A DNA stretch of 64,000 bases, from IMG/VR virus record IMGVR_UViG_3300009128_000002. One strand, 5' to 3'. Shown in pieces: positions 28,593 through 61,250 of this stretch. Position 1 is the stretch's first letter. Every line of letters begins with the position of its first letter. The stretch is from a virus. A program made the position numbers and the translations under genes. Under the pieces are notes generated by a model. That model was not told the DNA's origin and did not search any database. It saw only the letters and a program-made list of their open reading frames with translations.

Positions 28593-31500
28593 ATGTCAAA
28601 CGAAAAATTTTCACATAATCCAGCGAAGTTTTTATCAATTTTCGTTGACCGTATGGTGCCGGATTATGTCCGTGAAGACCACCCAATGTTTATCACATTC
28701 ATGCAAAAGTATTTTGAATACTTGGAGCGTGAAACAAGTGTAAATGGTGAATTAGGTGAATATACTCAAATAACAGACCTTATTGAAAATGTAGATATTG
28801 ACCATGCTTTGGATCAATTTATTCCAGAGTTTGAAAAACAATACTTATCAAGTACACCTACAACTGCTATTGACCCAACAGTTCCGACAACTGATAAAGC
28901 ATTTCTTACTAAAAATATTCAACCAACATATAGACAAAAGGGTACTGAGTCTGCATTAGACTTTATGTTTAGACGTGACTTTAATACAGAGGTTAAAGTC
29001 GCATATCCTAAAGAGTTTATGTGGAAGGCGTCTGGTTCAGATTGGTACGAACCACAATGGATAAATGTTGATGGTACTGCAACTAACACAAAGAAATTTT
29101 ATAATAAAAAGATCATAGGTCAAACATCAGGTGCAACAGCGTTTGTTGACATTGATGAAGGTATTTCTATTTCAGATTCCACAAAGTTACTATTAACAGA
29201 AGTTGATGGTTCTTTTATTCAAGGTGAAGAAATTCATGAAGATGTAGGTACATCTGGTAATGCACCAACTACTGCATTTATTACATCAGAAGGAATACGT
29301 TCTGATGGTGAGTGTTCTGTTAATGGTGGTAAATGGACAGATCAGTGGATTAATATTACTGGTCCACGACATGAAGTTAAACACGCAACAAATAATACTA
29401 TTGTTGGTGAAACTTCTGGTGCAACTGCCCACGTTGATGTGATGAATGTAAATTGGACTAGATTTAATATATCAGAAGTTCAAGGTGAATTTATTGAAGG
29501 TGAAAGAGTATATAATACATCTGCATTGAATTATAACCCCGACCCAGAAGGTAATCCATCATGGCTGCCAACTGAAAGTTTTTGTTCATCAAATAATGAG
29601 TGGCCATTAGGTACATTTCTAACTGAAAGAGAATGTACTAATGCCATGCATCCAGAAGCAGATGATCCAACTTCTGTTCATTATGGTGAATCGTCACATT
29701 TATTTTGGTTTCCTTTCCTTACTGTAACTAAAGGGGTACAAACTGTTGAAAATAGTTTTTTAGAAGTAGGAACAACACAACCAACTACACGTGAAGAATG
29801 TTTAAATTTATTAGATCAACCAAACGTAGACACTGCAGTTTGGGTGCCTAATGGTAGTTGGTTAGACTCTTCAGCGTTCTTATCTTCAGACCGTAAGTTA
29901 CAGGATAATGAATATTACCAAGATTATTCATATGTAATTAAGTCAGACGTTCCTATTCAATCTTACCGTGAAGTATTAAAGAAATTAGTTCACCCAGTAG
30001 GACTTAAATTATTTGCTGAATTTGCATTCCAATCGTCAGTAGATATGACGGTTGAAATTCCAACGGATTATGTTAAGTTACAAATTTTCTTATTCTCTTA
30101 TCTTGATGTTGCAATGGATATATGGGATAATGAATCGGAACAGCATGGTACACTTGGACACGCACATGAAGGATTTGGTGTTTATTTAGATAAAGGTTTT
30201 GAAGAATATGTAATCGAAATGATGTCTGCCTTAGAAGCCAGTGGACAATTAATTCCAGCAGAAGATTGGGATAAACCTTCAGATCACTTATCAGTAAACC
30301 TTGAGATTGATGGTGGTATTATTGGTACAACAGTTAGGGAGAAATTGTACACAGTTTCTTGGATGAATGATGATATCCAAAACCAATTGATTGCATTCCC
30401 AGAAACTACAATGCTCGAGTTTACTAAACAACTTAAAGTATTACCTATTGATGAATTCCCACCTGCAACACAGGAATTAGAGATTGTAGATAGTTTAGAT
30501 TCAACTACAGATGGTCGAATGATTAGTTGTGACCTTTGGGAACTTGGTGTATTTAAATCAATGCGTAAGGTATTGGAGTTTATTGACTCTTTCATGCCAG
30601 AGGCAGAATATGCACCTGAAAAATCATATGCTTATTTTGAAGCAAATAGAGAATCTGGAAGAATACAAAACATTTATGGTAAAACAAATGATGTAATTGA
30701 TTCAGTACATATTGGTGCATTTGATGAAGAAGTTGGTAATAGAATTCACTCACACGGTAGAGAAGATGGTTTCGCTCCGTTAGTAGAAACTGTAATTACA
30801 AAAGGTTTAGAACTACCTGTTATGGATGTTGGTGCATCTGCATTCCACGTACATTATTTTAATGGTGAAGAAATTAAAAACTTTACAAGACATGGAAAAC
30901 CAGTAACTGCTCGTGGTATGAACCACAACGAGGCAAGAAGACTAATTGACAGAGATTACTTTGAAATTCCTCATATGCACGGTGCTAACCTTGTATGTGG
31001 TGGTATTATGACTCCGCCTTTATGGGGTGACTGGGTAGATTCACAACAAGACCCACGTTATAATGGTATGGGAGAATGTTTTAATTCTCAATACGATAAT
31101 CCTACAGATTGTATTTCGTCATACGGTGGAAACCCTATGTTCTGGATGCCTCCTATGTGTTCTAATATGAGTAATATGGATCAATCTGTTTGTGAAGATA
31201 TGGGCGATACTTGGGTGGCAAATCCACCTTCTGCTTGTTCGGACGGAACATCACCTGACCATATGCAATGTGAGGCTGCTGGTGGAACTTGGACTTGGGA
31301 AACACCTAGTTATTGTACTTCATCTGAAGCGTCGTGTAATGCAGTTGGCCATTCATGGGGTTACTTCACATTAGAATCGTTACCTCCAATGAAAGGACAC
31401 GTTTCATATTTCGTTAAAGGTGAATTAGTAGACAGACAACGTGGACGATTTGCCGACCCACTTACACGTGAACAAGCAAGACAACTTATTGACGGTGATG

Positions 31501-34500
31501 TTGCTTCGGTTACTCTTTATGATAATGTTGGTTATTTAGACGATGAAGGTCACGTATTTACAGACGAACAAGATATTACTATTGGTGGTACTATTACTAA
31601 CATTCGTGGTGAAATTACAAGTGGTCACTATCACGAATATGAAGTAACTTACGACCCCGATTGGAAAGAACACACAGATTGGCAGAACAATCCACTAACA
31701 CACGGTTTTGTTTACACACCAATAACTACTTGGTTATGTTTTAACTATGACCCATCATTACCAGTAGATCCTACTGTTATGGGTGGTATGGATTTCTTAG
31801 GAAACCCTTGGCCACAGAACGTATTTATGGATGTGCCTGATTCTTATGTTGGTGGTTTCTTAATGAACCCAGATATTACATTACAACATAATCAAGTTTG
31901 GCCAGAGGTTTTAAATCCTAATGTGGACTTTGTTGAAATATATTCATCAAATCATATTGCTCAAGTGCCTGGAGTTGGTGCAACTGGTGATTTAATTGGT
32001 GTTGATTCTTTAGGTACTGATACTGATATTGTGGTTGTAGAAGCATTTCCTTCTTCAGTACAAACAGACACGGTTGCTATTGTTGACCAATCTGGTATCA
32101 TTAAGTTAATGAATGAGAATGATGGTACTAAGACTACCTTTATGGATCTTACTTCATTGCAACATACTATTGGTTTAGGTCCGTTTGCGAACTATGACGA
32201 ACGTGGTGTTCTTGGTTTATGTTTCCACCCTCAATTTGATACAAATGGTAAATTTTACGTTTATTACATGACTGAACAAGGTGGTGGTACAGGCGCTTGG
32301 GGCTTCCCATTATCGACTACTGTTATATCAGAGTTTGTTACTGATGCAGATAAACTTACTTGTACAGATTTATCTACTGAAAGAAACTTATTTACTATTC
32401 CACAACCAGACTTTAATCATAATGGTGGTGAACTAGTATTCGGACCAGACGGTATGTTGTATATCGGACTTGGTGATGGTGGTTCTGCAGGTGATACTTC
32501 TTCAATGGAAGGTCATGGTGGACACGGTGTTTATGGTAATGCACAAAACCCTACAAATTTATTAGGTACTATTTTAAGAGTAGATGTTACAGAAGATACT
32601 GTTAATAGTATGCCGTACACTATTCCTTCTGATAACCCATTTATCAATTCAATTTATAAAGAAGGTCAACCAGAAGCAACTTCATTTAGACCTGAAATTT
32701 ATGCTTATGGATTTAGAAATCCGTGGAGATTCTCATTTGCTCAAGATGGCAAGTTGTGGTGTGCTGATGTTGGACAAGACAAGTTTGAAGAAATCAACAT
32801 TGTAGAAGCAGGTGGAAACTACGGTTGGAGAGTAATGGAAGCATACCACGAGTATGAAGAAGACCAAACAATCATCGACCAAATTGCCATTGATTTAGGA
32901 CACACAAATACATTTGATTACTTAACAAGTTTAAAAGAACCTATTCACGAATATTCACACGGAACTGGTATATCTATATTGGGTGGATTTGTTTATAAAG
33001 GGTCTATTACAGAATTACAAGGTAAATACATATTTGGTGATTGGTCAACCACTTGGACAGGTACAAGTGGTCATTTATACACATTAAGTGAAAATTTTGA
33101 TGGGAACTCTGCCCACTTTAATGTTCTACCGAATGCAATAAATGGGTCAACACATAGTCATACGGTTGACTTGACAGGAGCACACGTACAGTTTCTTAAA
33201 GATAACCCAGGCAGTCCTGTTGTACAAATACAATCAGATACAGTTCATTCAGAATTCTACCTCCATACATTTACTATTATTTGGAGTTCTGAAAATCAAG
33301 AGTTTGTTTTAATTGGTCAAACTAATCCTGAAGGACATGATGTATTAGAATTTGTAGAGTATGGAACTGATTTAACATATGACAGAACACCACTATCTAT
33401 TTGGGATCCGACTACTGAAATTGTTGATTTAACAACAATGGGCGAGTCTATTCTTACTATGGGTGAGACTAATGATGGTGAAATTATATTTACTACTAGA
33501 ACTGGTATTGATACTTTCCAAGGTTCTGGTGTAGGTAATACATCAATGTATAAAATTACAGATTCTTATAATTCTGAAGATATACCTACTGCAAATAACC
33601 AGATACCTTCAACAGAAACTGCTCATATACACGGTTACGAAGTAACGTATGACGAGGAGAATTTATTCCAGGCAGTTGAAGTTTCAGATATTGAAATGCA
33701 AAACTATGATGCATTCTGGCCAATTTGGTCTTGGAATGATCCTGCATCACATATTCATCCAGTAAACAGTGCTTGGAGTGGTGAAACAGATACACAAACA
33801 TTACTTGGTTCTTCTGCAGGTTGGTATTATAATGAAGACGAAGAACAGTGGATGCCATATGATATTGGTGCAGATACGCCTTGGGCACCACCAGTAGAAG
33901 AGGATACTTCATATACGTACATTGAAACTGCTCCATCTGTTGCTATTTTAGGTGCTAACGAGTATGGTGAAAATACACATATACATTACTTCGACTCGTC
34001 TGTATTAGATACTTATGGTACAAACCAAGGACGTCTATCAACACCATTAACTAGATTGCAGGCAGAAGAACTTGCAAACGGTGTTGTTAATGAAGTTACT
34101 ATTTATTCATCAATTAGTGATAGTGGTTCGCATTTACATTACCACGAGTTTAAGGTTTTATGGAATCCTGCAACACAACAATTCCTTGCACAAGAGGTTG
34201 GTGAGTATAGGGATCTTATGGGGACTGGTGAATGGACTATAATTTTAGATGAACAAAAGAACCACGAACACACATTAACTGTAAATGGTATCACTACTAA
34301 CCTTGGTTGGAATGGTACTCCGTTATTTACAGCACCTGATGTTACACTAGGTCTTGCCCACGATTGGGATAACCTTGAAGGTAATAAACCAGATCATTTA
34401 CATTCATTTAACGGTACAGATCTAGATACTATTGGTGTTAATGCAGGACGTATTTCTGAAGCACTGACAGATGAGCAAACAACAGACTTAATTAATGGTG

Positions 34501-36164: not shown

Positions 36165-36177
36165 TAGGTGGTTTTAT

Positions 36178-36198
36178 TATAAATAAGTCGTATAAATA
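36178..36198 (+). promoter_or_regulatory. tandem T4-type late promoters
   Basis: TATAAATA at 36178-36185 and 36191-36198. Confidence 0.75.
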
Positions 36199-36256
36199 GT
36201 TTCAGTTTTATAAGAAACATTAAATAAATTAAGATTAATTTTTAGGAGTAAAGAAA

Positions 36257-37252: not shown

Positions 37253-37269
37253 ATCTGCTAAATAGATAT

Positions 37270-37294
37270 AAGGTGTTCATATAGAGCACCTTTT
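37270..37294 (+). terminator. rho-independent terminator
   Basis: AAGGTGTTC-ATATA-GAGCACCTTTT. Confidence 0.6.
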
Positions 37295-37322
37295 AATGAT
37301 TTATTGATAGGAATAGAATAAA

Positions 37323-40300
37323 ATGAGCTACAATTTCAATACAGCACCATATTACGATGATTACGATGCGAATAATAGATTCTTAAAGATTCTATTTAAT
37401 CCAGGCAGAGCAGTTCAGGCCCGTGAATTAACGCAAATTCAATCAATTCTTCAAAATCAAGTTGCATCAGGCGCCAATCATATTTGGAAAGATGGGGCCA
37501 ATGTGTTAGGTGGTGAAGTTTCAATTAACCATAGAGATTGGATACAATTGGCTTCTGCAGATACCTCTTGGTTAAACCGTGTGGTTTATGGAACAACTTC
37601 TAATGCTGTTGCTGTAATTGAGCAATTACATTCTGATGAAACACAACCAATTTATTATTTTAGAACTTTATCTGGTACTTTTGCAGATACAGAAGCACTA
37701 GCAACATATGACACAGTATGTAATGGTGGACAGGATGAGTTTGGTGGGTGTTTAGATAACTCGTGGTATGACAATTCATTAACTGTATTAAACGGTTCTA
37801 TTGTTGCTAAAGGTAAAGCACTTGAAGCCAAGATTGGTAATGGTATTTATTGGATTGATGATAACTTTATTCCTGTATTAGCACAAACTATTTTCTTAGA
37901 TGATAATTCAGCAACACCTACTTGTAAGGTTGGTTTTGATATTGAAGAAACTATTGTTGCTTCTACTACCGATGCAAGTCTTTTAGACCCTGCTTCTGGT
38001 TTTTATAATCAGAATGCTCCAGGCGCTGATAGATATCGCATTACATTAAACCTTGTAAAAGAAACAGATTCATTAGAAGCAAATAAATGGGTTTGGTTGA
38101 TGGATGTTGAAAATGGTGCGATTACTACACAATATGAACGCACTGATTACTCATTACTTGCAAATGAAATTGCTCGTAGAACACACGATGAAAGTGGTAA
38201 TTATACACTAAATCCATTCCCACTGGAATTAAAAAATAACCTAACAGATGATTCATTATACAATATTAAAGTTGAACCATCAAAAGCATATATTAGTGGT
38301 TATGAGCATGAATTATTAGTACCAGTTGAAGTTTCTGCAAATAAATCACGTAGTACAAAAGCAGTAGCAAATGATCACATTACACCAGAATTTGGACCTT
38401 ATTTTGAAGTAGAAAGTGAAAACGATTTTCATGGTGTATTTGATGTATTACATAAAGAGTATGTTATATTTGTAACCAACTCAGACTATACAACTGCAAT
38501 GGCTACACCAGATACTATTGGTGTTGCAAAACGTATTACCCATGTAACAATGGTAGGTACAACATTTAGAATTTATTTAGAAAACGATGAAGGTTTAGAT
38601 GCAATTTCACCTGCTAGATTTATTGTTTCTCAAACAGACCCTTCAGTATATGCAAAATTACATATACCAACAGGTGTTGCAGTACGTAAAGGTGTTAATA
38701 AACCGTGGTTATATGAATTGACAGATGTTGTTTCTTCTGTTACTTCTGGTCAGGTAACATTCTCTACCCAAAAGAACTTCACTGCTCAAATGACTGGTAG
38801 TCGTATTGACGTACCTGCCGGACCAGTAGGTTTACATTTTGAGCGTATATTATATATCTATAATTCAACGTCTGGTAATATTGTACCAAAAGCAGGTACA
38901 ACATCAACCTCAACAGTATTTTGGACTGAGGATTTAAGTGGTAATGATTCTGCTCTTATAACTATTGTGAATTCTAGTGGTGTGGAAGTTACAGATCTAA
39001 ATGGTGATTTCTTACATATTATGTCAGATATGTATCAATCAGATGCAGTATGGAGAAGTATTTCAGAAAATGATACAACTGGTACTTTTACATTATTAAA
39101 TGAAGTATTAACTATACCACATGGTGTACAAAATATTATATCAGTAATTGCACCTGATACAACTGATGTTACTTCTAGTTTTACCTTTGATGATGGTGTT
39201 ACAGATACAACATATAAAGATGGTACATTAACTTGGACTGATACAGTTAATGCATCACAGCCAGGTACATACACAGTAACATTTAAGGCACACACTTTTG
39301 GTGATATTGCAACTGCAACATATTTTACAGTAAATTCTAGAACAACTGCTGGTATTAATTATTCTAATATTGGTGTGTATCAAGGCGACATTAACCAAAA
39401 AGTATATAGACTTTCTGACTGTTTAGATTTTAGAACTTCTGATGAAGATTACTTAACAGGTACATACTTACCATTACCAGAATCTAATATATCTTGCTCA
39501 TATGAATTTTACTTACCACGTAAAGATAGATTGACTATTGACGATGATGGTATTATTAATATTAAAGAAGGTTTCCCATCTGAAGATCCAATATTACCTA
39601 CAGAGTTAGATAATGAGATGACTTTATATGAATTATATGTACCACCATATACATATGATGCAAAAAACATTAATGTAACACACGTTAAAAACAAACGATA
39701 CACAATGCAAGACATTCGTGCTTTGGACGAACGTTTAAATAATTTAGAATATTATACTGCATTAAACTTATTAGAACAAGATACTGCAGCCATGCAGGTA
39801 ACGGATGAGTTAGGTTTTGAGAGATATAAAAATGGTATTTTAGTTGACCCATTCCACGATCATGGTATTGGTGATATCACAAACGACGAATATTATGTTT
39901 CTATTTTCCCAGAAGCAGGTATTTGTACTACCCCATTCACAATGACTGGATTAGATTTTGAATCTGGTACAATGAATGGTATGAAGCAAAACAATTTAAC
40001 ATATACATTAGACTTTAATGTTATTGAGGGTTGGATTTCGCAAAACAATGGTTCACAAGTTATAAACTTAAACCCTTTCGCAAGAAAATCTTGGGTCGGT
40101 TTTGTAACAATTTCACCTTCAACAGATACTTGGTTTGAAGAACTATACGTTCCTGATGTTATTGTTCAAAACGAAAATAACAATTCAGTAACACAACAAC
40201 GAATTGATTATGGCACACAGACACGTTGGAATGCGTGGCAGACAACTTGGAATGGTTGGAGAGATACTGGTGGACGTGAAAACGCATCTGGTTCAGAAGT

Positions 40301-42719: not shown

Positions 42720-42732
42720 AGGAGAATGTAAT

Positions 42733-42936: not shown

Positions 42937-42945
42937 AGGGTTATT

Positions 42946-43149: not shown

Positions 43150-43176
43150 TAATTAATATTTAAGGAAAGAACACCA

Positions 43177-46100: not shown

Positions 46101-49100
46101 AGAGTATGAAGTGGTTGCCGATTTGGCATCTTACAGATTCCAAGTTGACCGTGATATTACTAATCATATTGGTTCGCCTTATGTTGAAGGTATAGAAATT
46201 CTTTGGAGTCGTCCTAATACAGTTAAATCAAACAATCATGGTTTATCTGTTGGTGATATTGTACAGTTGCCTTCTGGTGAACAACCATATACACCATCTG
46301 AATTGCCTGGTGCTATGAACGACCATACGGTTGTTGCTTTAGGTGATGGTTATGGTCCGACAGATAATATGGAAATTACAGTAGATACTAACACTACTGT
46401 AACTTGGAACGACCCTACACTTACAACAGTTGAAGGTGCTCAAGACTCGCCTTGGTTATGGTCTTGGTGGGATCATACTGCAGATTCTTACTTCCCTTAT
46501 CAAAGAGCAGGTGCCACTTATGACAACTTCGGTGGTAATGATGGTATTAACGGTGGTTTTGAATTATTCCGTGGTGGTACATATAAGTTTACTAATAATG
46601 CTTGGAATCCATCTGGTCATATTACATTAAACGACCCAGTAACTGGTAACCCAACACCTATGTATATGCACGCCGCTGGTGTTAAAGCAATGCTTGGTGC
46701 TGGGTGGGATAACCTTGTTCAAGCAGGTATGGTACAAAACGATGGAAACAATTGTGTTTCTATGAGAGCAAATCACGGTCTAACAATTACTGCTGGTGAC
46801 CATAATGACTTCGTTAATACTGAAGAAGAGCCAGGAACGTGGGTAGGTTCAGAACCATTCCCTGTTTGTATGGGACTAGGTGGTTGGTGTGAAGAATTAG
46901 ACGTTGATGGTTGGTATTATAATGGTGAAGACGTTAAATCTAACTGTGAAGCACTTAACCCTACTAATGACCCAGGCTTAGCACAATGGAGAGAATCACA
47001 ATTTATTGGTAACTTCTCAAAAGAATTTACTTGGACTATTCCTGAAGATTTCGGTTTGACAGGTTCAGATGGTGCAACTGGATTAGGTCCTTTTGTACCA
47101 CCTGGCGAGGTTAATGGTGCTTACCATATGACACATGATGGTGGTTTATACCGTTTTGATAAATCTGGTATGATTGAAGGTACTAACAGAACGATTAATT
47201 TATATCGTGGTGGTACATACACGTTTAAGATTAACTCTGCTGGACACCCACTTTACGTTACAACAGATGACGGTTCGCATTTCACGCCAGGTGCATACTT
47301 TGGTGAATACTTATTAGGTGTTCAAAACTCACGTGCAGAAGAAGGTGCTGGTGTTCAGACTGAAGGAACTGATATGTGGGGTAATGACGATTCTGGTGTT
47401 CCAAAATACGAAGAGTTAGTATGGACTGTTCCAGAAGTTGCGCCAGATACTATGTACTATCAGTGTGCATGGCACGCTTCAATGATGGGACAATTCAATA
47501 TCCTTGATATGCCTGTTATTAACGCTGGTGATGATATTGTTGTTTACTTCCATCACGGTCAAGACAATATGTACACTCCATTACATATTAAGGATAAGAT
47601 TGTTGTTGATAATGGTACATCTACAGATTACTTCCAAGTACAACCTGCCCCAGAAAATGCGTTCCCAGTAAAAGGAACTCAAGCAGATATTTTAGGTACT
47701 AATAATGCACTTACTGCTACTGGTCCTGGCGCTGTACCAGAAATACAGGCAATGAATATTGAATTAGGTACTGTATCTTATATCGACCCTCTTGCGATGG
47801 TGCCAGGTATTGGTTCTGAGCAATTCCTTGTTACTAATGATATTGGTGGACTTGCTAAAGTTTACTTCAGTGTAGATATTGATCAACGTTCTGATATTAT
47901 TTTAGACAATGTAACATTTAAAGAAGTTGTATGGACTGAAACAGGTTCTTGGCAGATTCAAGGTGGTTCTGCATTTACTAATACTACAGATGCCGCTTAT
48001 ATTGAGCAGATTGTGACTGGTTCTATTTCCGAAGGTGTTACATACGAAGTTAAATACGATATTATTGAATCATTTAAAGACCAATATGGTGCTGAAATTG
48101 GTTCTATTACTGCAGAATTGCGTGGTGACACGATAGTTCAAGGTATTTCTAACACTTTAGTTGGTCATTATTCTGAAACTCTAGTTGCTCCTGCAAATAC
48201 TACTATTCTTAGATTAGTTAATAGTGGTAAAGGTAAGATTGATAACATTTCTATTAAAGAACGTGTTACTGGTCAGAATGCTTGGTCTATGGGTGAAGGT
48301 TGGACATCTGATGGTGCAAAAGCATATTTAGATGGTTCTATTGCTTCTTCTACTGAAGTTTCTCAAACAGTTTCTATTGATACTGGTAAACTATACGAAG
48401 TTAAATACTCACTTGCAGATGTAGATAACGATAATAATGGTATGACTGGACGTATGAGAGTAACATTGGGTACTAACCCAAATCAGTTAATTTCTAATTG
48501 GAACTTCGATATTACAGATACTGATTTAGTTAATTGGACTAATTCAAGTGATACTGTTCAAATTATCGATGGACAACTGATATTTAACTCTGCTTCTAAT
48601 GATACTTCTACTTACACACTATCTAACGCATTAGTTGGTGGTGTTAAATATGAATTAACTATTGATTGTGATTTAATTGAAGATAATATCCTTAACTTCC
48701 AAGTTGGACCTGGCCCTACTGGTACACATCCACACACTTTCCAAATGACTGAGTCGCAGGGTCAATGGTTACAAGAAAGCACAAATAACAGTTTAACATT
48801 CGAGCAAACCGATGGTTATCATGCAGAAACATATACACACGAATTTACAATTAAGTGGTTAAATGTTGGTGGTATTAATCAATATACGATAACAGAACAA
48901 TCAAATCCTGAAGGACACGATGAATTAACGTTGGTTTCTACTACTATTAATACACCTAGTATTGATTTTGTAATCAACGGAAACACAATGGGTACTATTA
49001 ATAAGTCTGGTATTCGCCATATTAACTTTATTGGTGAAATTACTACAGATTTAGTATTAAATATGAACGATTCTGGTGCTATTAATAGTGTTAAATTGGT

Positions 49101-51141
49101 TGAGGAAGATATTCCTGTTATTGATTACGATACTACTGGTTTAAACCAAGAGGGTGAGAAAGTATATCACGTTCGTGCTGGTTCATATGATCAAAAGATT
49201 CACTTTATCGGTGATGTTGATAATAACAACCCAGAGGAAAATAACCCATACTATTCTAATGTTGGTTTTGAAGGTTCTATTGATAATGTTTCAGTACGTG
49301 AAATTATTGAAAATTGGACGTTTGCTTCACAACAAGATGGTGTTGCATATGTTGATCAAAATACTAAACAAATTTATACTTCTGGTACTGGTCCAAACAA
49401 CCGTGGTATTGCACATATCAATTTCGAAATTGAAGCCAATATGAGTTACAAGGTTGCAGTTAAAGTTGACAGACCTACAGATTCTATTCTTAAACTAGGT
49501 CCAACTCCAGATAGTTCGGAGTATGGTTCTTTAGTTATAGAAGATACTGACACTAATGGACTATTCGACGAAGCACGTGACTTTGTATTCAAATCACCTG
49601 TTGCTGGTACTTGTTACTTGACACTTTCTACTACTGGAAATGGTTACACATATTGGGACGATGTTTCAGTTAAGACAATTCCTAACCTTTCATCTGACGA
49701 GTATTTATTACTTGCTCGTTCTATGAATGTTATGGGTGTTCCAATTGGTGGTGAAGAAAGATGGAATTCTAATCATTTAGATATGGAAAACGCAGACTAC
49801 ACTGGACAACCTATTTGTGGTCATAGAACTATGGAATCATTCGGTGAGTCTGTAATTGAAGATTACTACGACGTTAATAGACGTGGTAACGAAATTATGA
49901 ACCCACCTATTTCATTATCTACATTTGATGTTACTACTGGTCACAGAAGTGTTGCTTCTATTGTTCCTTCTTGTACTACTAATTTTGGTACTGAAGAATA
50001 TACAATTAAAGCCGCTTGTGAACAGATTGTTGGTGTTTGGTATCCTACAGACCCTGCTCATTGTAGTAATATAGATTACACAACTCAAATAGATTGTGAA
50101 ACTGTATTTGGTTGGTGGACTGTTGCAACGCCAGGTTCGTGTTCTGACTCGTTATATACATCTGAATATAGTTGTAATGGTGCTGGTACTTGTTCTGACC
50201 CTTCGTACTCGTTTGAATATACTTGTACTGCCTCTGGTACTTGTTCTGACCCAGTATATAATGATAACCAATTAGGTTGTATTGATTCTGGTGGTTCTTG
50301 TTCTGATGGAACTTCTACTACTTCTGGTGAGTGTTACGAGACGAACGGTACTTGTTCCGATGGTGTTAGTACAACTAATACTGAATGTGGAACTGCTGGT
50401 GGTACTTGGACACCAACTAACGTTTGGACTGCTCTAAATACTTGGACTAATGCTGGTAATACTTGGACGTCTGCAGGTAATACGTGGACGCCTGGTGACC
50501 CAGGCTATTGTTCTGATGGTATTCAAACATCTCAAGCAGTTTGTGAAGGACCTAGAGGAACTTGGATTGAAGAAGACTTCGAGCATTGTACTACTGATAT
50601 ACCATTCTTAACGGTTAACAATCAAACAGATTGTGAAGCACCTCGTGGTACATGGGATGTGACTGTTGTTGATGAAATGGGTGGTCAATGGGTAGAGATT
50701 GTTGGTGATGGTATTGATATGGATTACACAGTAATTTTAGGTGGTGTTGAACAAACTAACGTTCAGAACATCAACTTACCATATAAGATTAAGTTTGAGG
50801 TTGCTCCAACTACACCACTTGGTGAACAAGTATTAACTGTTACTAACTCTGACGGTGATACTGCTTCATTTACTGATGCACCATTTACAGTTACTGATCA
50901 ATTGCGTATTATTACGGTAGTTGATATTAATACTATTACTGGTGCTGGTTTTGTTGCAGATACGGTAGTTGAGTTTATTTCATCAGGTACTACTACGGTT
51001 GCTGATACACCTGCCGTTACGGTAGTTGATGCAAATAACATTACAGTTTCACCTACACTTAGTGCAGGAACTTACGATGTTAGAGTAACAAACTTAGACG
51101 GTCAAACGTTTACTGAAGTAACTGCATTAACAATTGTATAA
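43177..51141 (+). CDS. giant virion/fibre protein with CBM-like, cupredoxin, His-pair, Cys-repeat and C-terminal IPT/TIG-like domains
   Basis: 2654 aa; ELI.NG.FD CBM-like starts, HN...YHCTFHP, GHP...YYQCAWHASM, G.GY...P repeats, GTYDVRVTN.DG. Confidence 0.85.
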   Translation: MAHYTGHTFTLTELNTIEQQKSDFLDSLNIKLSSPDLLVKDLALMLKSLEVMENLEHLQEYKDFIINVAQKSAEFVNPIELITNGGFDVTYNTTNLVQNSSFDNDAFEVELVKNSGFDVPVDLARPWANGIAYLFDIFTTEGTEVIRAYTDGQQTAVAWFETVLKPNTQYKFSYDLTINNVNWDLPNGGFNMVDIPSTDKMVFSEAGGGPDPQQIVISIIEDENLVLPTCNGEVVEWDNTVDYNLALGEMENACKANDAVWNYDPVSSSFYCDDDGDGYPGNGAVDQAACYANNAVWDEGELTNPNTQQHDIVPYHVEAREGDTLIFTNPVGNYLVHNAVSDDNISFTSPDLNPGETWNWVVDGYHDIYYHCTFHPLEEGRMTTKTNHRYVYSIDHGLNPGDTVKMAINYGSMVSLPSLSNSYFINLLLPNTLSTTGGAPYTAVESLYHDLSIGNVISMQSGDVETNPEAGVPMIVTFAGGVDAETISATASANVTAGVVSGLELTANGQNYTSKPLLYITGGGGSGATGTLEFDGGLSGIELSEVGAGYQSTPTIQISAPDVGQLGPDSSCTDPTYTDQTSCETALETWYEVINTIQAEASCTITPTGEIDTITVTNMGSGYHTPPTITFIGGSPTVAGAANAIIDGSVYSVTLTSGGSGYGSGDGSVGVGERRWEDYIITAVAKGNERVDVFFDDVNQIGHTHTAEITPAEYVQIQASTATMIVTSEDAGHTHTATFDWDASANNGGGAMFLVGMTGSHTHGMENYYDITGGTKVELVNFGHYHEILITEADEATLKAAPLQNVTQDIDGTWSATSGNTIIRTSDFGTSDPQHFHTVEFGCLDPATDTYLIIEVDQHIHDMGRVWYPGSNQFTVGKYDFALGGDDLNPSAIATPFTDINGYVKKEKGIESDAHGLIPGDRVHFENVYNGIHHGNTNYWVDYVIDADHFALTEVVIYPLENSAGTTPTIHNVIEEYEVVADLASYRFQVDRDITNHIGSPYVEGIEILWSRPNTVKSNNHGLSVGDIVQLPSGEQPYTPSELPGAMNDHTVVALGDGYGPTDNMEITVDTNTTVTWNDPTLTTVEGAQDSPWLWSWWDHTADSYFPYQRAGATYDNFGGNDGINGGFELFRGGTYKFTNNAWNPSGHITLNDPVTGNPTPMYMHAAGVKAMLGAGWDNLVQAGMVQNDGNNCVSMRANHGLTITAGDHNDFVNTEEEPGTWVGSEPFPVCMGLGGWCEELDVDGWYYNGEDVKSNCEALNPTNDPGLAQWRESQFIGNFSKEFTWTIPEDFGLTGSDGATGLGPFVPPGEVNGAYHMTHDGGLYRFDKSGMIEGTNRTINLYRGGTYTFKINSAGHPLYVTTDDGSHFTPGAYFGEYLLGVQNSRAEEGAGVQTEGTDMWGNDDSGVPKYEELVWTVPEVAPDTMYYQCAWHASMMGQFNILDMPVINAGDDIVVYFHHGQDNMYTPLHIKDKIVVDNGTSTDYFQVQPAPENAFPVKGTQADILGTNNALTATGPGAVPEIQAMNIELGTVSYIDPLAMVPGIGSEQFLVTNDIGGLAKVYFSVDIDQRSDIILDNVTFKEVVWTETGSWQIQGGSAFTNTTDAAYIEQIVTGSISEGVTYEVKYDIIESFKDQYGAEIGSITAELRGDTIVQGISNTLVGHYSETLVAPANTTILRLVNSGKGKIDNISIKERVTGQNAWSMGEGWTSDGAKAYLDGSIASSTEVSQTVSIDTGKLYEVKYSLADVDNDNNGMTGRMRVTLGTNPNQLISNWNFDITDTDLVNWTNSSDTVQIIDGQLIFNSASNDTSTYTLSNALVGGVKYELTIDCDLIEDNILNFQVGPGPTGTHPHTFQMTESQGQWLQESTNNSLTFEQTDGYHAETYTHEFTIKWLNVGGINQYTITEQSNPEGHDELTLVSTTINTPSIDFVINGNTMGTINKSGIRHINFIGEITTDLVLNMNDSGAINSVKLVEEDIPVIDYDTTGLNQEGEKVYHVRAGSYDQKIHFIGDVDNNNPEENNPYYSNVGFEGSIDNVSVREIIENWTFASQQDGVAYVDQNTKQIYTSGTGPNNRGIAHINFEIEANMSYKVAVKVDRPTDSILKLGPTPDSSEYGSLVIEDTDTNGLFDEARDFVFKSPVAGTCYLTLSTTGNGYTYWDDVSVKTIPNLSSDEYLLLARSMNVMGVPIGGEERWNSNHLDMENADYTGQPICGHRTMESFGESVIEDYYDVNRRGNEIMNPPISLSTFDVTTGHRSVASIVPSCTTNFGTEEYTIKAACEQIVGVWYPTDPAHCSNIDYTTQIDCETVFGWWTVATPGSCSDSLYTSEYSCNGAGTCSDPSYSFEYTCTASGTCSDPVYNDNQLGCIDSGGSCSDGTSTTSGECYETNGTCSDGVSTTNTECGTAGGTWTPTNVWTALNTWTNAGNTWTSAGNTWTPGDPGYCSDGIQTSQAVCEGPRGTWIEEDFEHCTTDIPFLTVNNQTDCEAPRGTWDVTVVDEMGGQWVEIVGDGIDMDYTVILGGVEQTNVQNINLPYKIKFEVAPTTPLGEQVLTVTNSDGDTASFTDAPFTVTDQLRIITVVDINTITGAGFVADTVVEFISSGTTTVADTPAVTVVDANNITVSPTLSAGTYDVRVTNLDGQTFTEVTALTIV

Positions 51142-51147
51142 AATAAT

Positions 51148-51169
51148 TGAGGGTGAGCAATCACCCTCA
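51148..51169 (+). terminator. stable hairpin after the giant gene
   Basis: TGAGGGTGA-GCAA-TCACCCTCA (GNRA loop); weak U-tract. Confidence 0.55.
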
Positions 51170-51190
51170 TAAAGAATTAGAAAATAGAAT

Positions 51191-51222
51191 AACTATTATA
51201 AATAGTTGTATTATTATAAATA
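51191..51222 (+). promoter_or_regulatory. tandem late promoters
   Basis: TATAAATA at 51197-51204 (inside the inverted repeat AACTATT-ATA-AATAGTT) and at 51215-51222. Confidence 0.7.
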
Positions 51223-51260
51223 TTATTAAATAAGAATTAATTTATTGGAGATAACGAACA

Positions 51261-54200
51261 ATGTCTGTAACACTATCAACCATATCAACGCAAGTTGACC
51301 AATTTAACGATATTCCAGATATCACCTTTACTGGTATTGATATTACAGAGTTCGTTGAAGAAGTAGAAATTTATACTAACACCCCTGCAGTGATGATTCC
51401 AACTAAGTTGAACGCTATGGCGGGCAACATGAAGGCTTGGTTAAATTCAAATGTAACTACCCCATTAGAAAACCAACAAAATACGTTTAAAGATGAAGTT
51501 GTCGTAAGAACAAATACTGCTATGAATGCTGTAGAAACTTACATGAACGATGAAGTTGCTGGTTTTATTAATACTGTATTTGTTCCTTGGGCAAACGATG
51601 CCGGTACTACATTATCAACTGCTTCTAACTTATTAGAAACAAATGTAACTACTCAAATGACGCAGTTACAATCAGACTATACTATCCACGTACAGAATCA
51701 AGATGCAATTATCCAACAGGCAATTGATGATATGATTCTTCAACTTTCACAGTACACTTCTGGTGCTGCCGATTCAGGTTACTCTATCCATCAAACGAAT
51801 TTATTGATGTCAGATCTAACAATGACACGTGAGATTGGGTTTGCAGACTACAAATATACTAAAGATGGTCAAATCGCATTTGCAGAAGAAGGTGCTAATA
51901 AAACCCATCACATTGCTTACGATAAGTCAGGTAATATTATATCTTTTGGTGAGTCTATGCAAATTGACGGTGAACCACGTCCATTTGTTCAGCATCTTAA
52001 ATTGGATAAAGAATTAGGAACTGGTTCTACTTCAGTTGAAAAGGTTAAGGCATATAGTATATTTAAATCAGTTTCAGAGACTGGTATTGAATCTTTTAGA
52101 GCTACTGCTCATGAGACAGACGGTGCGCCAGGTGTTGATCTAACTATTTTGAATAATACATCAATTGCAGATACAGATAACCCAGAATTAATTATTCGTC
52201 GTGGTAACTCTAATGCATTATTATTTGATGGTATTGACGCTGGTGATATGGTTAAAGTTTCTAACCTAGATGGTACTATTTACAACGATGGTATTTCTGG
52301 TCAATATGCAGAGGATTATGAAACAGTTATGTTTACACCACATTCTTCTTACTGTCATGATGGTCTTTCTTCTGTGACAGGTTGGGGTGTTGTTGTATCA
52401 GACGGTGCATCTGGTATCGATTCAGACGGTAGTGATTTTGATGATCCAACCAAATGTGAGAACTATTCAAATGCATCTGTATCATTATTAGACGACTTCA
52501 GTAGAACTTACGAGTATGATATTGTTGGCGAGTCTTATGATACAGACCTTTCTGATGGTCTTACATATAAAGTTTCTATTACAGATGATTCTGGTGTTGT
52601 TGATACTTACGGTTATACTATTGACGCAAATAAAACATTAGGTACTGGTGCAATTTTAAATGCAGTTTATGACGATGGTGTTTCTGATGTAAATATTACT
52701 AATGGTGGTTCTAAATATTCAGAAAACACATTCGCTAGAGCATTTGATTTGGGTGCTGTTGACGTTACAGGTTCTACAGAAACTAAAGCAGAAGCGACAT
52801 TCACGTTAAGAAATGGAATGGTTGATTCTATTAAGGTAGTTGGTGGTGGTGCTGGGTATCAGGGTTTCTGGAACGTTGTTGTACCAGACGGTGGTAACGG
52901 ACACACACATAACTTACAACTTTCACAAGCAGAAATTAATACTATTAAGTCTGGTACTACAGTAGTTTCTACTACAGTAGAGGGTGGTCATTCACACGAT
53001 ATTACAATTTCATGGAATTCATTTACTGAGAATTTTGTATTTGATTCACAAGTTGGTGCCCATGATCACGGTAGTGTTGCAGATTCATATCAAATTAACC
53101 CTTCTATTACAGTTGATTTCAGTGCTGGTCTTGGTGGTAACGCAGTTGCTCATGTATTACTTACAGAAACTAATGAATTAGATAAAGTTGTTGTTACAAA
53201 CGGTGGTTCTGGTTATTTAGTAACAGATATAGTTTCTATTACTGGTGGTAACGAAACTACTTCTGGTGCAATTCAAGTATCATATGCAGACGGTGGTATT
53301 GATTCTATTTCATTAACTAATCAAGGTACTGGTTATACAGATACAACACCTAAGACAGTTTCAGTTGCTATTCAAAATAATGCATTTCAACCTTCAATTA
53401 TTTCTGCTAACGTTGGTGATACTGTTGAATTTACTAACTTAGATATAGGTGCTCATACAGTTACTAATGAAGATGGTGCATTTGATTCTGGTGATATTCC
53501 ACAGAATGCTGTGTTTAGTTACACTATTGTAGATGACACAGAATTAACAAAAGAATATAAAATTACAGATACACAGACTGGTGGTGGTGCAACTCTATGG
53601 GTTCGTGAAAATACAGTATTTGTAGATATGGTAACTTCTACTGGTGGTGGTATGCGTGGTATTGCTACGGTAAATGCTTCTGGTAATATTATTGACATCG
53701 CAGTTGACCGTCCAGGCAAAGGGTATGTTGCCACTGACACAGTTAAACCAATCGACGTTTCTGGTCCTGGCGAGGGTGCATATGCAGATGTAGTAACAAA
53801 CCGTTCTATTGATACAATTACAGTTGACAGTATTGGTTCTGGCTATTCATTAGATACAGAAATTATTATTTTCGACCCAACTGGAACACCAATTTACGAT
53901 GATTTGGGTGTTGAGATTGATCGTGTATATGGTTCTGGTGCGAGTGCAACAGCAACTATTTCTTTAGTTACAATTCCTGCCTTCTGTTCTGATGCATTGG
54001 TTACTGACGAACCTACTTGTACAACGACTGGTAATACTTGGACTGCTGAAGTACCACAAGGTGCTATTACAGAAGTTTCTGTAAACCGTGCAGGTAGTGA
54101 CTATGTAGATATAGAACTTATTATCAATGACCCTCAAGGAACTGGTTCTGGTGCTATATTAAGTACAGGAATCAACAATGTGGTTAGTGATATTAACTTT

Positions 54201-54833
54201 ACTTCACGTGGTGCAGATTATGACGAACCTTTAGTTCTAGTAACAGACCCTTCAGGAACTGTAGGAACAGATTCTACTAATACTGTTGGTGGTGGTTTTG
54301 AAGGAACTGTTGGTCTTAATAATGGTATTGGTGCAGTTACAATCGTTGAAGATTGGCATGATTATATTAACGGACAAACACGTGTTATTGTAGTAGACGC
54401 TCATCCTGAGCCTACTGGTTATGGTGCATCGGGTGTTGCTTCATTAGGTGGTGCTGGTAATGTTTCAAACGTACAAATTGATAATCCAGGCAGTGCATAC
54501 AAAACACCAGTAATTATTGTTGCTGGACCTGTTACATATACAGGTGGTTCTATTAATGCTGCCGATACAGATTATGCATTATTTGGACCAGAAGGTAATA
54601 CTGATGATTCACCATTCTCTGCTAACAATTCTGCAGGTACAAACTTTAAGAACGGTATTTTAGTACAATGGCAATCATACCAAGGTCACTCATTAAATGA
54701 CTCTTGGGAATTTACTACACAATCATGGAAGAAAGGTACACCAGATTCGTTAGTGTATGAATCTTCTAGGTTTAACGGTTCTACAAACAACATGAAAGGT
54801 GTTATTACATTGAAAGATGTTTGGGACGTATAA
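51261..54833 (+). CDS. large virion/fibre protein with G.GY repeats, His-pair module and degenerate cupredoxin fold
   Basis: 1190 aa; N-terminal coiled coil, repeated I.I.N.G.GY, IQNNAFQPS.I...VGDTV.FTN.D...HTVT. Confidence 0.85.
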   Translation: MSVTLSTISTQVDQFNDIPDITFTGIDITEFVEEVEIYTNTPAVMIPTKLNAMAGNMKAWLNSNVTTPLENQQNTFKDEVVVRTNTAMNAVETYMNDEVAGFINTVFVPWANDAGTTLSTASNLLETNVTTQMTQLQSDYTIHVQNQDAIIQQAIDDMILQLSQYTSGAADSGYSIHQTNLLMSDLTMTREIGFADYKYTKDGQIAFAEEGANKTHHIAYDKSGNIISFGESMQIDGEPRPFVQHLKLDKELGTGSTSVEKVKAYSIFKSVSETGIESFRATAHETDGAPGVDLTILNNTSIADTDNPELIIRRGNSNALLFDGIDAGDMVKVSNLDGTIYNDGISGQYAEDYETVMFTPHSSYCHDGLSSVTGWGVVVSDGASGIDSDGSDFDDPTKCENYSNASVSLLDDFSRTYEYDIVGESYDTDLSDGLTYKVSITDDSGVVDTYGYTIDANKTLGTGAILNAVYDDGVSDVNITNGGSKYSENTFARAFDLGAVDVTGSTETKAEATFTLRNGMVDSIKVVGGGAGYQGFWNVVVPDGGNGHTHNLQLSQAEINTIKSGTTVVSTTVEGGHSHDITISWNSFTENFVFDSQVGAHDHGSVADSYQINPSITVDFSAGLGGNAVAHVLLTETNELDKVVVTNGGSGYLVTDIVSITGGNETTSGAIQVSYADGGIDSISLTNQGTGYTDTTPKTVSVAIQNNAFQPSIISANVGDTVEFTNLDIGAHTVTNEDGAFDSGDIPQNAVFSYTIVDDTELTKEYKITDTQTGGGATLWVRENTVFVDMVTSTGGGMRGIATVNASGNIIDIAVDRPGKGYVATDTVKPIDVSGPGEGAYADVVTNRSIDTITVDSIGSGYSLDTEIIIFDPTGTPIYDDLGVEIDRVYGSGASATATISLVTIPAFCSDALVTDEPTCTTTGNTWTAEVPQGAITEVSVNRAGSDYVDIELIINDPQGTGSGAILSTGINNVVSDINFTSRGADYDEPLVLVTDPSGTVGTDSTNTVGGGFEGTVGLNNGIGAVTIVEDWHDYINGQTRVIVVDAHPEPTGYGASGVASLGGAGNVSNVQIDNPGSAYKTPVIIVAGPVTYTGGSINAADTDYALFGPEGNTDDSPFSANNSAGTNFKNGILVQWQSYQGHSLNDSWEFTTQSWKKGTPDSLVYESSRFNGSTNNMKGVITLKDVWDV

Positions 54834-55860: not shown

Positions 55861-55874
55861 TAGGAGAAAGAATA

Positions 55875-56612: not shown

Positions 56613-56641
56613 TATAATTTATTTAGAATAAGGAATAACAA

Positions 56642-57622: not shown

Positions 57623-57641
57623 AATATTAGGAGTATAGAAA

Positions 57642-60102: not shown

Positions 60103-60118
60103 ATAATTTCACAAAAGG

Positions 60119-61249: not shown

Positions 61250-61250
61250 T

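What the first reader, a model, noticed from the sequence alone, without database searches (positions are those of the whole stretch)
28593..54833. Candidate virion-borne metallo-redox system: dehydrogenase-family propeller, cupredoxins and His-pair modules built into tail proteins
Seen: three late structural genes (gp7-like 2523 aa, plus 2654 aa and 1190 aa proteins) share a toolkit of non-structural domains: a glucose/sorbosone dehydrogenase-family propeller (about 32070-33570), cupredoxin folds (about 44100-44330, 47190-47510, 53355-53610), about 10 His-pair modules and many Cys-pair repeats. Known: bacterial quinoprotein dehydrogenases pass electrons to blue-copper proteins (amicyanin, azurin), and HxH pairs bind Fe in the T4 gp37 tip. 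Inference: the free virion may display an enzyme/electron-carrier/metal-scavenging surface for sensing or oxidising host-surface sugars, mimicking metal-uptake ligands, or redox-triggering the baseplate. A simpler alternative is that these folds are re-used as inert adhesins or decoration. I know of no described phage with this combination, but cannot search to confirm that.
Basis: partly seen in the sequence, partly recalled or inferred. Interest (0 to 1): 0.92.

Follow-up and report, generated by a model that had tools for sequence, protein, structure and literature searches.

The report
Metal-site domains on phage tail proteins
An uncultured ocean phage builds a sugar-dehydrogenase-type propeller, blue-copper-type domains and about a dozen histidine-rich metal-site modules into its baseplate and fibre proteins; the metal-binding residues are strictly conserved, so the particle probably carries bound metals, but nothing shows that the parts form a working electron-transfer chain.

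Summary
The window is the baseplate and host-recognition block of an uncultured T4-like marine myovirus.

- **gp7-like protein (2523 aa):** it holds a GSDH-family propeller (Pfam 1.9e-32). The family's catalytic His, Arg/Asn pair and calcium-loop residues are invariant in 35 phage homologs. The two C-terminal arginines that hold PQQ in E. coli YliI are absent.
- **2654-aa fibre:** it holds two cupredoxin domains with invariant ligand sets. One is His/Cys/His/Met; its model matches azurin and rusticyanin. The other is His/Cys/His with Glu in the axial slot.
- **1190-aa fibre:** it holds a cupredoxin-like domain without ligands.
- **His modules:** ten full copies of an unnamed ~70-130-aa module each carry six invariant ligands (3x HxH, or five His plus Glu/Asp). 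Relatives are small secreted bacterial proteins.

The redox-chain reading is not supported. The same copper-type module sits in 185 cultured cyanophage records, and no phage record there has a GSDH domain. No heme, PQQ supply or docking evidence was found.

My best reading is a modular host-recognition apparatus with real metal sites that act as staples or binding surfaces. The propeller probably binds sugars and may oxidise them.

This scan found the cupredoxin module before on other phage DNA. The GSDH propeller and the His module are the newer parts.

The parts
28593..36164 (+). gp7-like baseplate wedge protein, 2523 aa. The gp7 core lies in the first ~500 aa; the rest is a ~2000-aa extension carrying the modules below.
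   Evidence: phrog_17744 baseplate wedge 1.4e-52 (aa 12-232) and Pfam PF23786 at 40 bits against a cut-off of 27 (aa 424-476). It lies between gp6 (26826-28577, phrog_219 1.7e-156) and gp8 (36257-37252).
32070..33107 (+). GSDH / HHIP-like six-bladed propeller, blades 1-5
   Evidence: Pfam PF07995 1.9e-32. PDB sequence hits: HHIP 6e-25, sGDH 1.6e-13 to 2.6e-13. Catalytic His, Arg/Asn, Ca-loop Gly and Glu are invariant in 33+2 phage homologs. Mean conservation is 0.70 against 0.64 for the C-terminal region as a whole, aa 1142-2523.
33132..33368 (+). Type II His module (five His plus an invariant Glu) inserted in the propeller before its last blade
   Evidence: It aligns with the other nine module copies. 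It is absent from cellular GSDH and from phage clade B. H1521, H1523, H1552, H1558, E1580 and H1582 are 100% conserved in 28 homologs.
33390..33587 (+). Last blade of the propeller. Ser/Leu stand where YliI has Arg-x-Arg.
   Evidence: Alignment with E. coli YliI and 86 cellular relatives.
33957..36077 (+). Five further His modules: 33957-34292, 34374-34691, 34758-35111, 35535-35885, and type II at 35835-36077. Two more HxH lie at 33600-33782, and partial units at 30726-31001 and 31449-31664.
   Evidence: Alignment A1. All HxH pairs are 100% conserved. His is the most conserved residue type, 0.91 against 0.625 for non-His.
31158..31367 (+). Three Cys-pair units (C...C...W)
   Evidence: Regex hits against shuffles.
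37323..42719 (+). DUF4815 / VrlC-type baseplate protein. It marks the start of the host recognition cluster and carries none of the metal modules.
   Evidence: Pfam PF16075 6.9e-59. One HxH only. The role of VrlC is described in PMC7029224.
43177..51141 (+). 2654-aa fibre-like protein of the host recognition cluster
   Evidence: 25 homologs at 57-79% identity, on contigs of up to 153 kb.
44098..44331 (+). Cupredoxin 1: His337, Cys372, His375, with invariant Glu378 in the axial slot (motif HCTFHPLEEGR)
   Evidence: 9cck E 6.6e-5 and 5fc9 E 0.0022, with ligands aligned. Invariant in 26 sequences. No match in GenBank phages.
45262..45780 (+). Two type I His modules (3x HxH each)
   Evidence: All twelve His are invariant. 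The model has pLDDT 65 and is alpha/beta, with no fold match (best Z 3.7).
47149..47532 (+). Cupredoxin 2 with a complete type-1 set: His1357, Cys1430, His1433, Met1436 (C-x2-H-x2-M)
   Evidence: The Foldseek top 50 are cupredoxins. Ligands are invariant in 26 sequences. The same module with the same ligands is in P-SSM2, S-SSM5 and P-SCSP2.
48706..48942 (+). Type II His module (five His plus invariant Glu1912)
49954..50646 (+). Cys-pair repeat array, the least conserved part of the protein
   Evidence: Conservation 0.32 against 0.62 overall; regex hits.
51261..54833 (+). 1190-aa fibre-like protein
   Evidence: PHROG structural hits. Homologs P0170 and P0188.
52881..53096 (+). Type I His module (GHTH, GHSH, HDH)
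   Evidence: First row of alignment A1.
53355..53609 (+). Cupredoxin-like domain 3. It keeps the N-terminal His but has no Cys/His/Met loop.
   Evidence: Pfam Cupredoxin_1 0.0038; 9cck 8e-4. It is also ligand-less in homologs.

Best explanation
These three proteins form the outer baseplate and fibre apparatus of an uncultured T4-like marine myovirus. They are built from modules of kinds also found in secreted and surface proteins of bacteria.

The metal sites are real.
- The two ligand-bearing cupredoxins most likely hold copper.
- Each His module most likely holds one six-coordinate ion or two three-coordinate ions (Fe, Zn, Ni or Cu).

Because virions assemble in the cytoplasm, metal loading and the disulfides of the Cys-pair units would be completed after lysis, in oxic seawater. 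This step is inferred.

The metals mainly act as structural staples that keep small extracellular domains folded, and possibly as part of the surfaces that touch the host. The GSDH propeller on gp7 works as a sugar-binding host-contact domain that uses the family's conserved pocket. Whether it also carries a cofactor and oxidises the sugar is open.

Shown: the domain identities, the invariance of the ligands, and the distribution. Inferred: which metals bind, the stapling role and the lectin role. The parts do not need each other as a redox chain.
For: - **Context:** baseplate synteny, with position after VrlC in the host recognition cluster.
- **Copper ligands:** invariant in 26 homologs.
- **His modules:** His is the most conserved residue type in the gp7 extension, 0.91 against 0.625. 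In type II modules the slot of the fifth His holds an invariant Glu or Asp, which keeps six ligands.
- **cup2 fold:** cupredoxin.
- **cup2 is a general tail module:** it occurs in 185 cyanophage records, in proteins annotated tail spike, gp9 or fibre, and a GSDH search matched none of those phages.
- **Cellular GSDH relatives:** many of those in the searched length range (1387 aa and more) carry FN3, Calx-beta, PKD or T9SS sorting domains.
- **Nearest solved relative of the propeller:** HHIP, a binding protein rather than an enzyme.
- **Relatives of the His module:** small bacterial proteins with Tat or lipoprotein signals, so the module is extracytoplasmic.
- **cup3:** it is kept without ligands, so the fold is also useful as plain scaffold.
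Against: - A type-1 copper site is an electron-transfer device wherever it has been studied. A purely structural role for a His/Cys/His/Met site has no well-known precedent (my own knowledge).
- The propeller keeps the whole catalytic set that HHIP has lost (Arg/Asn pair), and it is among the better conserved parts of the protein. That fits an active enzyme as well as a lectin.
- A second phage lineage (P0045, P0048) has cup2-like domains and GSDH in one gp7-like protein. This could mean a functional link.
- No metal content was measured, and no structure with metal is available. The His-module model is of low confidence (pLDDT 65).
Confidence: 0.58

Rival explanations
1. The GSDH propeller is an active, cofactor-bearing sugar dehydrogenase on the baseplate. 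It acts alone on a host surface glycan, as an oxidative counterpart of the hydrolase, lyase and esterase domains known on phage tails. It does not need the cupredoxins.
For: - The catalytic His, the Arg/Asn pair, the Ca-loop Gly and the Glu are invariant in 35 phage proteins and 86 cellular relatives. Their roles are described in PMC6881810 and PMC6881789.
- The same subfamily includes members fused to cytochrome c (P0059, P0075, P0077, P0080, P0122). The subfamily is therefore redox-active even though it lacks the YliI Arg-x-Arg.
- Conservation is 0.70, above the protein's mean.
Against: - The Arg-x-Arg that binds the PQQ carboxylates in YliI and sGDH is replaced by Ser/Leu.
- The host and its PQQ supply are unknown.
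- A dehydrogenase needs an electron acceptor, and none is evident on a free virion.
- The conserved residues are also the family's core motifs, so they may be kept for folding or sugar binding.
- No phage enzyme of this kind is described in the library searched.
Confidence: 0.2
2. One reading: a virion-borne relay in which the propeller oxidises a host sugar and passes electrons to the fibre cupredoxins and His-bound metals, to sense the host or trigger the baseplate.
For: - All three kinds of site are under strict conservation.
- 5 of 5 IMG/VR contigs with the fibre homolog also hold the GSDH gp7.
- An unrelated gp7-like lineage joins cup2-like domains and GSDH in one chain.
- A loose precedent exists in fungi, where the PQQ pyranose dehydrogenase CcPDH (a six-bladed relative) carries its own cytochrome domain (PMC6881789).
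Against: - cup2 modules are common in phages in which no GSDH was found, so co-occurrence is expected by chance in marine myoviruses.
- The domains sit on different proteins, with no evidence of contact.
- No heme or other relay motif was found.
- Amicyanin and azurin partner TTQ enzymes, not this family (my own knowledge).
- cup3 has lost its ligands.
- The phage A and B GSDH grouping has support of only 30, so independent recruitment is not shown.
Confidence: 0.07
3. Metal display as bait (the Ferrojan Horse idea). The His modules and cupredoxins present bound Fe or Cu so that host metal-uptake receptors bind the fibre.
For: - The virion proteins carry twelve or more six-ligand sites, far more than in the published cases. 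T4 gp37 has seven Fe, and Alteromonas phage R22Y has six HxH per chain (PMC11705849).
- The setting is marine.
- Homologs of the module are secreted bacterial proteins.
Against: - Sites with six protein ligands leave no free coordination position and do not resemble a siderophore complex (inference).
- Most modules lie in gp7, a baseplate protein, rather than at fibre tips.
- No receptor is known.
- The hypothesis itself is untested in any phage.
Confidence: 0.08
4. Inert re-used folds without metal: the motifs are relics of the donor proteins.
For: cup3 shows that the fold can persist without ligands. Pfam cupredoxin models do not reach their cut-offs.
Against: About 70 ligand positions are 100% invariant, while neighbouring positions and the middle residue of HxH vary freely.
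Confidence: 0.05

Closest known systems
Soluble PQQ sugar dehydrogenases (A. calcoaceticus sGDH, E. coli YliI/Asd) and the HHIP propeller; Pfam PF07995
   Same: Same family by Pfam (113 bits). Same catalytic His, Arg/Asn pair and Ca-loop Gly/Glu as sGDH and YliI. The nearest solved sequence is HHIP.
   Different: - It sits in the C-terminal extension of a phage baseplate protein.
- It lacks the C-terminal Arg-x-Arg of YliI.
- A His module is inserted before its last blade.
- Unlike HHIP, it keeps the Arg/Asn pair.
- No GSDH domain was found in 50,697 GenBank phage records, apart from four Acinetobacter contigs annotated yliI.
Cupredoxin modules of cyanophage tail proteins (P-SSM2 PSSM2_298 'tail spike', S-SSM5 gp9, P-SCSP2); small blue copper proteins (azurin, amicyanin, rusticyanin)
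   Same: cup2 shares 39-42% identity and the invariant H...YYQC..H..M.G pattern with the cyanophage copies, and the fold with azurin and rusticyanin.
   Different: - The domains are embedded in giant structural proteins rather than being free periplasmic carriers.
- cup1 has Glu in the axial slot and no relative in GenBank phages.
- No paper in the library links cupredoxins with phage tail fibres.
HxH metal sites of T4 gp37/gp12 and P2 gpV; Ferrojan Horse hypothesis
   Same: Paired histidines occur on phage host-contact proteins, with six ligands per site (PMC11705849).
   Different: In those cases three chains of a trimer give one HxH each, along a fibre axis. Here three HxH (or five His plus Glu/Asp) lie within one ~70-130-aa alpha/beta module of a single chain, repeated ten times or more. 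Homologs are small secreted bacterial proteins.
Unnamed family of small Tat/lipoprotein-signal bacterial proteins with tandem NHGH / GHxH / GHxH repeats (for example P0160, P0164, P0169); YmaF (PF12788) as an untested lead
   Same: Profile hits reach 1e-13 to 1e-10, with the same spacing of three HxH and the helix between them.
   Different: No Pfam or NCBIfam model covers them and no function is known. YmaF is only an Atlas feature hit at 0.88, and no Pfam YmaF match was found.
Quinoprotein-to-carrier pairs (methylamine dehydrogenase-amicyanin; the fungal PQQ pyranose dehydrogenase CcPDH with its cytochrome domain)
   Different: Those pairs are shown biochemically and act in the periplasm or the secretome. 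Here there is no evidence of contact, cofactor or acceptor.

Membership tests
GSDH / PQQ-dependent soluble sugar dehydrogenase (PF07995) | Match to the family model above its curated cut-off | tested here: met
   113.3 bits against 25, aa 1166-1482.
GSDH / PQQ-dependent soluble sugar dehydrogenase (PF07995) | General-base His (sGDH His144) and the Arg/Asn pair at the PQQ ketones (Arg228/Asn229) | tested here: met
   NHNGG and FRNP are invariant in 35 phage and at least 83 of 86 cellular sequences. Roles are taken from PMC6881810.
GSDH / PQQ-dependent soluble sugar dehydrogenase (PF07995) | Active-site calcium loop (sGDH Gly247-Pro248, backbone ligands) | tested here: inconclusive
   Gly is kept and Pro is replaced by Gln throughout the subfamily. 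The ligands are carbonyls, so sequence cannot decide.
GSDH / PQQ-dependent soluble sugar dehydrogenase (PF07995) | C-terminal arginines that bind PQQ carboxylates (sGDH Arg406/Arg408; YliI R-I-R) | tested here: not met
   Ser and Leu/Met stand at these columns in phage clade A, and Thr/Ile in clade B. The arginines are also absent from the nearest cellular relatives, including those fused to cytochrome c.
GSDH / PQQ-dependent soluble sugar dehydrogenase (PF07995) | PQQ binding and sugar oxidation | not testable with these tools
   Needs protein and assay.
Type-1 blue copper proteins (cupredoxins; PF00127, PF13473) | Greek-key beta-sandwich fold | tested here: met
   cup2: the Foldseek top 50 are all cupredoxins, prob 1.0, TM about 0.5. 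cup1 is supported by sequence only (9cck 6.6e-5). cup3 is weak.
Type-1 blue copper proteins (cupredoxins; PF00127, PF13473) | Ligand set His ... Cys-x2-His-x2-Met | tested here: met
   cup2 has all four, invariant. cup1 has His/Cys/His with Glu378 in the Met slot. cup3 has none of the loop ligands.
Type-1 blue copper proteins (cupredoxins; PF00127, PF13473) | Match to the Pfam models above cut-off | tested here: not met
   The best is cup3 at 17.7 bits against 27. cup1 and cup2 have no cupredoxin-family Pfam hit; cup2's only hit is PF25489 at 19.4 bits against 27.
Type-1 blue copper proteins (cupredoxins; PF00127, PF13473) | Copper bound, with ~600-nm band and small EPR hyperfine splitting | not testable with these tools
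   Needs protein.
T4 gp37/gp12-type HxH metal sites | HxH pairs conserved on a tail protein | tested here: met
   34 HxH in the three proteins. Those in the regions aligned with homologs are invariant, apart from two extra overlapping HxH readings.
T4 gp37/gp12-type HxH metal sites | Site formed on the threefold axis by one HxH from each chain of a trimeric fibre | tested here: inconclusive
   Here three ligand pairs recur within one short module of one chain, with predicted helix and strands. The oligomeric state was not tested and the model confidence is low.
T4 gp7 baseplate wedge | Family model match and position between gp6 and gp8 | tested here: met
   PF23786 at 40.2 bits against 27; phrog_17744 1.4e-52; synteny.
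YmaF (PF12788) | Match to the Pfam model | tested here: not met
   No hit, even at E up to 10. Only an Atlas feature score of 0.88.

The most novel reading that the evidence does not exclude
The free virion is a metallo-enzyme particle. The gp7 propeller holds PQQ or another quinone and oxidises a host surface sugar on contact. The electrons reach copper and His-bound metal centres on the fibres, and the redox change either signals 'host found' to the baseplate or drives oxidative attack on the host glycan. That would be a mode of phage host recognition or entry with no known precedent.
Probability: 0.07. Interest if true: 0.95.

Novelty: new variant of a known kind. Interest (0 to 1): 0.68.

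Why it matters
Modular phage tail proteins and HxH iron sites are known. Three things here are not described in the phage records or papers searched:
- a quinoprotein-family propeller on a baseplate protein;
- a six-ligand His module that recurs ten times or more per virion protein set and defines an unnamed protein family;
- blue-copper-type sites kept intact on fibres.

If the sites are loaded, each particle of this lineage could carry a large number of bound metal ions. The lineage is represented by dozens of metagenomic protein clusters on contigs of up to about 150 kb. This bears on how much trace metal in seawater is held by viruses, and it offers a concrete test of the Ferrojan Horse idea.

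The modules are small and conserved, so they should be easy to express, and the question is directly testable. The cup2 module can already be tested in cultured cyanophages such as P-SSM2 and S-SSM5.

Tried and rejected
- **Nucleotide search of gp7 against GenBank phages:** no match.
- **Window's own genome:** none is held.
- **Papers on YliI and sGDH structure** (JBC 2006, EMBO J 1999): not held. Residue roles were taken from PMC6881789 and PMC6881810 instead, and E. coli YliI was fetched as the reference sequence.
- **Pfam and NCBIfam scans of the His modules and their bacterial relatives:** nothing above noise.
- **Fold searches with the His-module model:** no clear match. VIA wide gave a best Z of 3.7, and Foldseek PDB gave nothing at E <= 0.001. 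With pLDDT 65 this does not show a new fold.
- **Gene neighbourhoods of four bacterial His-module proteins:** three contigs were too short and the fourth (72 kb) was uninformative.
- **NCBIfam TIGR03606:** it scores both the phage propeller and genuine YliI far below its cut-off, so it does not discriminate.
- **GSDH tree:** phage clades A and B join, but with support of 30 and a long-branch warning. Single versus independent recruitment is undecided.
- **Host assignment:** gp6 is about 35-36% identical to pelagimyophages, Melnitz, a Desulfovibrio phage and cyanophages alike. No host can be named.
- **Not run:** a complex prediction between the propeller and a cupredoxin, because I do not claim that they bind and transient carrier pairs rarely pass. 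The third large homolog search was not spent.

Full report
**Context.** The window (GC about 35%) carries a T4-type baseplate block on the + strand. In order it holds:
- gp48-like, gp53-like, a tail protein, gp5, an unknown 619-aa ORF and gp6 (26826-28577);
- the 2523-aa gp7-like protein (28593-36164) and gp8;
- a 1798-aa DUF4815/VrlC protein, then the 2654-aa and 1190-aa proteins;
- two fibre-plus-chaperone cassettes and sugar-tailoring genes.

In pelagimyophages and cyanomyophages the stretch after VrlC is called the host recognition cluster (PMC7029224). No cultured phage is close. gp6 is 35-36% identical to pelagimyophages, the methylophage Melnitz, a Desulfovibrio phage and cyanophages alike, and the gp7 DNA has no match in GenBank phages. 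The host is unknown and no whole genome is held.

**The propeller.** Pfam GSDH matches aa 1166-1482 of the gp7-like protein at 113 bits, against a cut-off of 25. The gp7 core matches (PF23786, phrog_17744) lie in the first 500 residues. The propeller is therefore part of a 2000-residue C-terminal extension and is not inserted into the wedge fold.

Among solved structures, the nearest by sequence is the Hedgehog-interacting protein propeller (6e-25). Soluble glucose dehydrogenase follows (1.6e-13 to 2.6e-13), then the archaeal and E. coli aldose dehydrogenases.

I aligned 33 homologs of this phage lineage, 2 of a second lineage, 86 cellular relatives and E. coli YliI.
- The general-base His, the Arg/Asn pair that flanks the PQQ ketones, the Gly of the calcium loop and the following Glu are invariant in every phage sequence. 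Their roles are given in PMC6881810 and PMC6881789.
- The Arg-x-Arg of YliI, which is equivalent to the sGDH arginines that hold PQQ carboxylates, is Ser/Leu in the phage. It is likewise absent from the nearest cellular relatives.
- Several of those relatives are fused to cytochrome c domains, so the subfamily is probably redox-active by some other cofactor contact.
- HHIP has lost the Arg/Asn pair. The phage domain is therefore more enzyme-like than its best structural match.
- The propeller is among the better conserved parts of the extension, 0.70 against a mean of 0.64.
- A 79-residue His module is inserted before the last blade.

**The cupredoxins.**
- **cup1 (aa 308-385 of the 2654-aa protein).** It matches the C-terminal cupredoxin domain of a copper nitrite reductase (9cck, 6.6e-5) and a Nitrosopumilus blue copper domain (5fc9, 0.0022), with Cys and both His aligned. 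Glu378 stands where 9cck has the axial Met. The motif HCTFHPLEEGR is identical in all 26 family members. The Met four residues later varies between Leu and Met, so it is not a ligand.
- **cup2 (aa 1325-1452).** It has no sequence match in the PDB. Its model (pLDDT 74.6) finds only cupredoxins in the Foldseek top 50. His1357, Cys1430, His1433 and Met1436 are invariant.
- **cup3 (in the 1190-aa protein).** It resembles the N-terminal half of plastocyanin-type domains only weakly. It lacks the ligand loop, as do its homologs.

**The His modules.** HxH occurs 24, 7 and 3 times in the three proteins, against about 3, 1.4 and 0.35 in shuffles. Ten stretches of 72-118 residues align as one module, with five invariant His columns.
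- Type I has three HxH.
- Type II has HxH, then H-x5-H, then (Glu/Asp)-Gly-His.
- The carboxylate in the slot of the fifth His is invariant in all 26-28 homologs, as are all the histidines.
- In the gp7 extension His is the most conserved residue type, 0.91 against 0.625 for the rest, while the middle residue of HxH varies freely.

This is the signature of a six-ligand metal centre, or of two three-ligand centres.

The model of two adjacent modules is alpha/beta but of low confidence (pLDDT 65), and it matches no solved fold clearly. A profile search of 1.84 billion representatives gives only 279 hits. Apart from the phage proteins, these are mostly small bacterial proteins. Those I read have Tat or lipoprotein signals and tandem NHGH / GHxH / GHxH repeats, and the ones scanned have no Pfam or NCBIfam family. 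YmaF is an untested lead.

**Distribution.**
- The GSDH-bearing gp7 architecture (PF23786 plus PF07995) is found in about 32 metagenomic clusters at 54-78% identity, on contigs of up to 153 kb. Two proteins of a second lineage match at 39%.
- The 2654-aa protein has 25 homologs.
- Five of five IMG/VR contigs with that fibre also carry GSDH in a 2357-2785-aa ORF.
- The second lineage (P0045, P0048) has cup2-like domains and GSDH in one chain, but no His modules.
- No GenBank phage among 50,697 records has a GSDH domain, apart from four Acinetobacter contigs annotated yliI.
- By contrast, the cup2 module occurs with its four ligands in 185 cyanophage records. Examples are the P-SSM2 tail spike, S-SSM5 gp9 and a podovirus. 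It also occurs in many BFVD models of cyanophage fibre proteins.
- cup1 has no relative there.
- Earlier reports of this scan describe the same cupredoxin module on other marine phage DNA. I re-derived that here independently.

**Reading.** The further claim of an enzyme-to-carrier chain is not supported.
- The cupredoxin module lives on phage tails in which no GSDH was found.
- The parts sit on different proteins.
- There is no heme motif.
- The propeller lacks known PQQ carboxylate contacts.

My best reading, at about 0.58, is a modular host-contact apparatus. Its copper and His sites stabilise small extracellular domains or form part of binding surfaces, and its propeller binds a host sugar. 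An active stand-alone sugar dehydrogenase gets about 0.2, the full relay about 0.07, and metal bait about 0.08. Which metals bind, and when they are loaded, is inferred and not shown.

**Novelty.** Metal-bearing phage fibres and borrowed binding domains are known kinds. The GSDH propeller on a baseplate protein, the single-chain six-ligand His module and the axial-Glu cupredoxin are new variants. No paper in the library links cupredoxins with phage tail fibres or sorbosone dehydrogenase with phage baseplates.

Noticed in passing
window 49954-50646 (aa 2260-2490 of the 2654-aa protein); also homologs P0027, P0029, P0031, P0035: The Cys-pair array (GxCSD...C openers followed by runs of NxWT closers) is the least conserved part of the fibre, at 0.32. 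In gp7 homologs the same kind of array appears as large insertions of up to several hundred residues, including one placed just after the His module inside the propeller.
   Followed up: partly
P0010 (gp7 homolog), inside its GSDH domain: One homolog carries an extra insertion of about 130 residues within the propeller, between the LRVNV and IPTDNPF motifs. Propeller loops therefore seem to be preferred sites for module insertion.
   Followed up: no
window 54883-58412: Two consecutive cassettes, each of a ~325-aa protein (phrog_4205) followed by a ~250-aa protein with tail-fibre-assembly matches (phrog_9740, phrog_4912). This is a duplicated fibre-plus-chaperone pair.
   Followed up: partly
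window 58513-63895: Directly after the fibre genes come a tryptophan-halogenase-like protein, an unknown conserved protein, a Nol-type carbamoyltransferase and a nucleotide-sugar epimerase. These are the tailoring genes typical of a host recognition cluster.
   Followed up: no
window 14008-17619 (- strand) and 24223-26082 (+ strand): A 1203-aa ORF on the minus strand, and a 619-aa ORF between gp5 and gp6, have no PHROG family match.
   Followed up: no
P0045 aa 1972-2199 (second phage lineage): The two cup2-like domains look nested. An EHPF half at about aa 1990 pairs with YYYCHNHAAMGG at about aa 2182. A complete second copy (GHPF ... YYYCTAHSEKAG, with Lys in the Met slot) lies between them.
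   Followed up: partly
P0158, P0159 (hits of the His-module profile): Two ~330-375-aa proteins with two tandem His modules followed by a beta-rich C-terminal domain look like short phage fibre proteins. The module may therefore be used by other phages as well.
   Followed up: no
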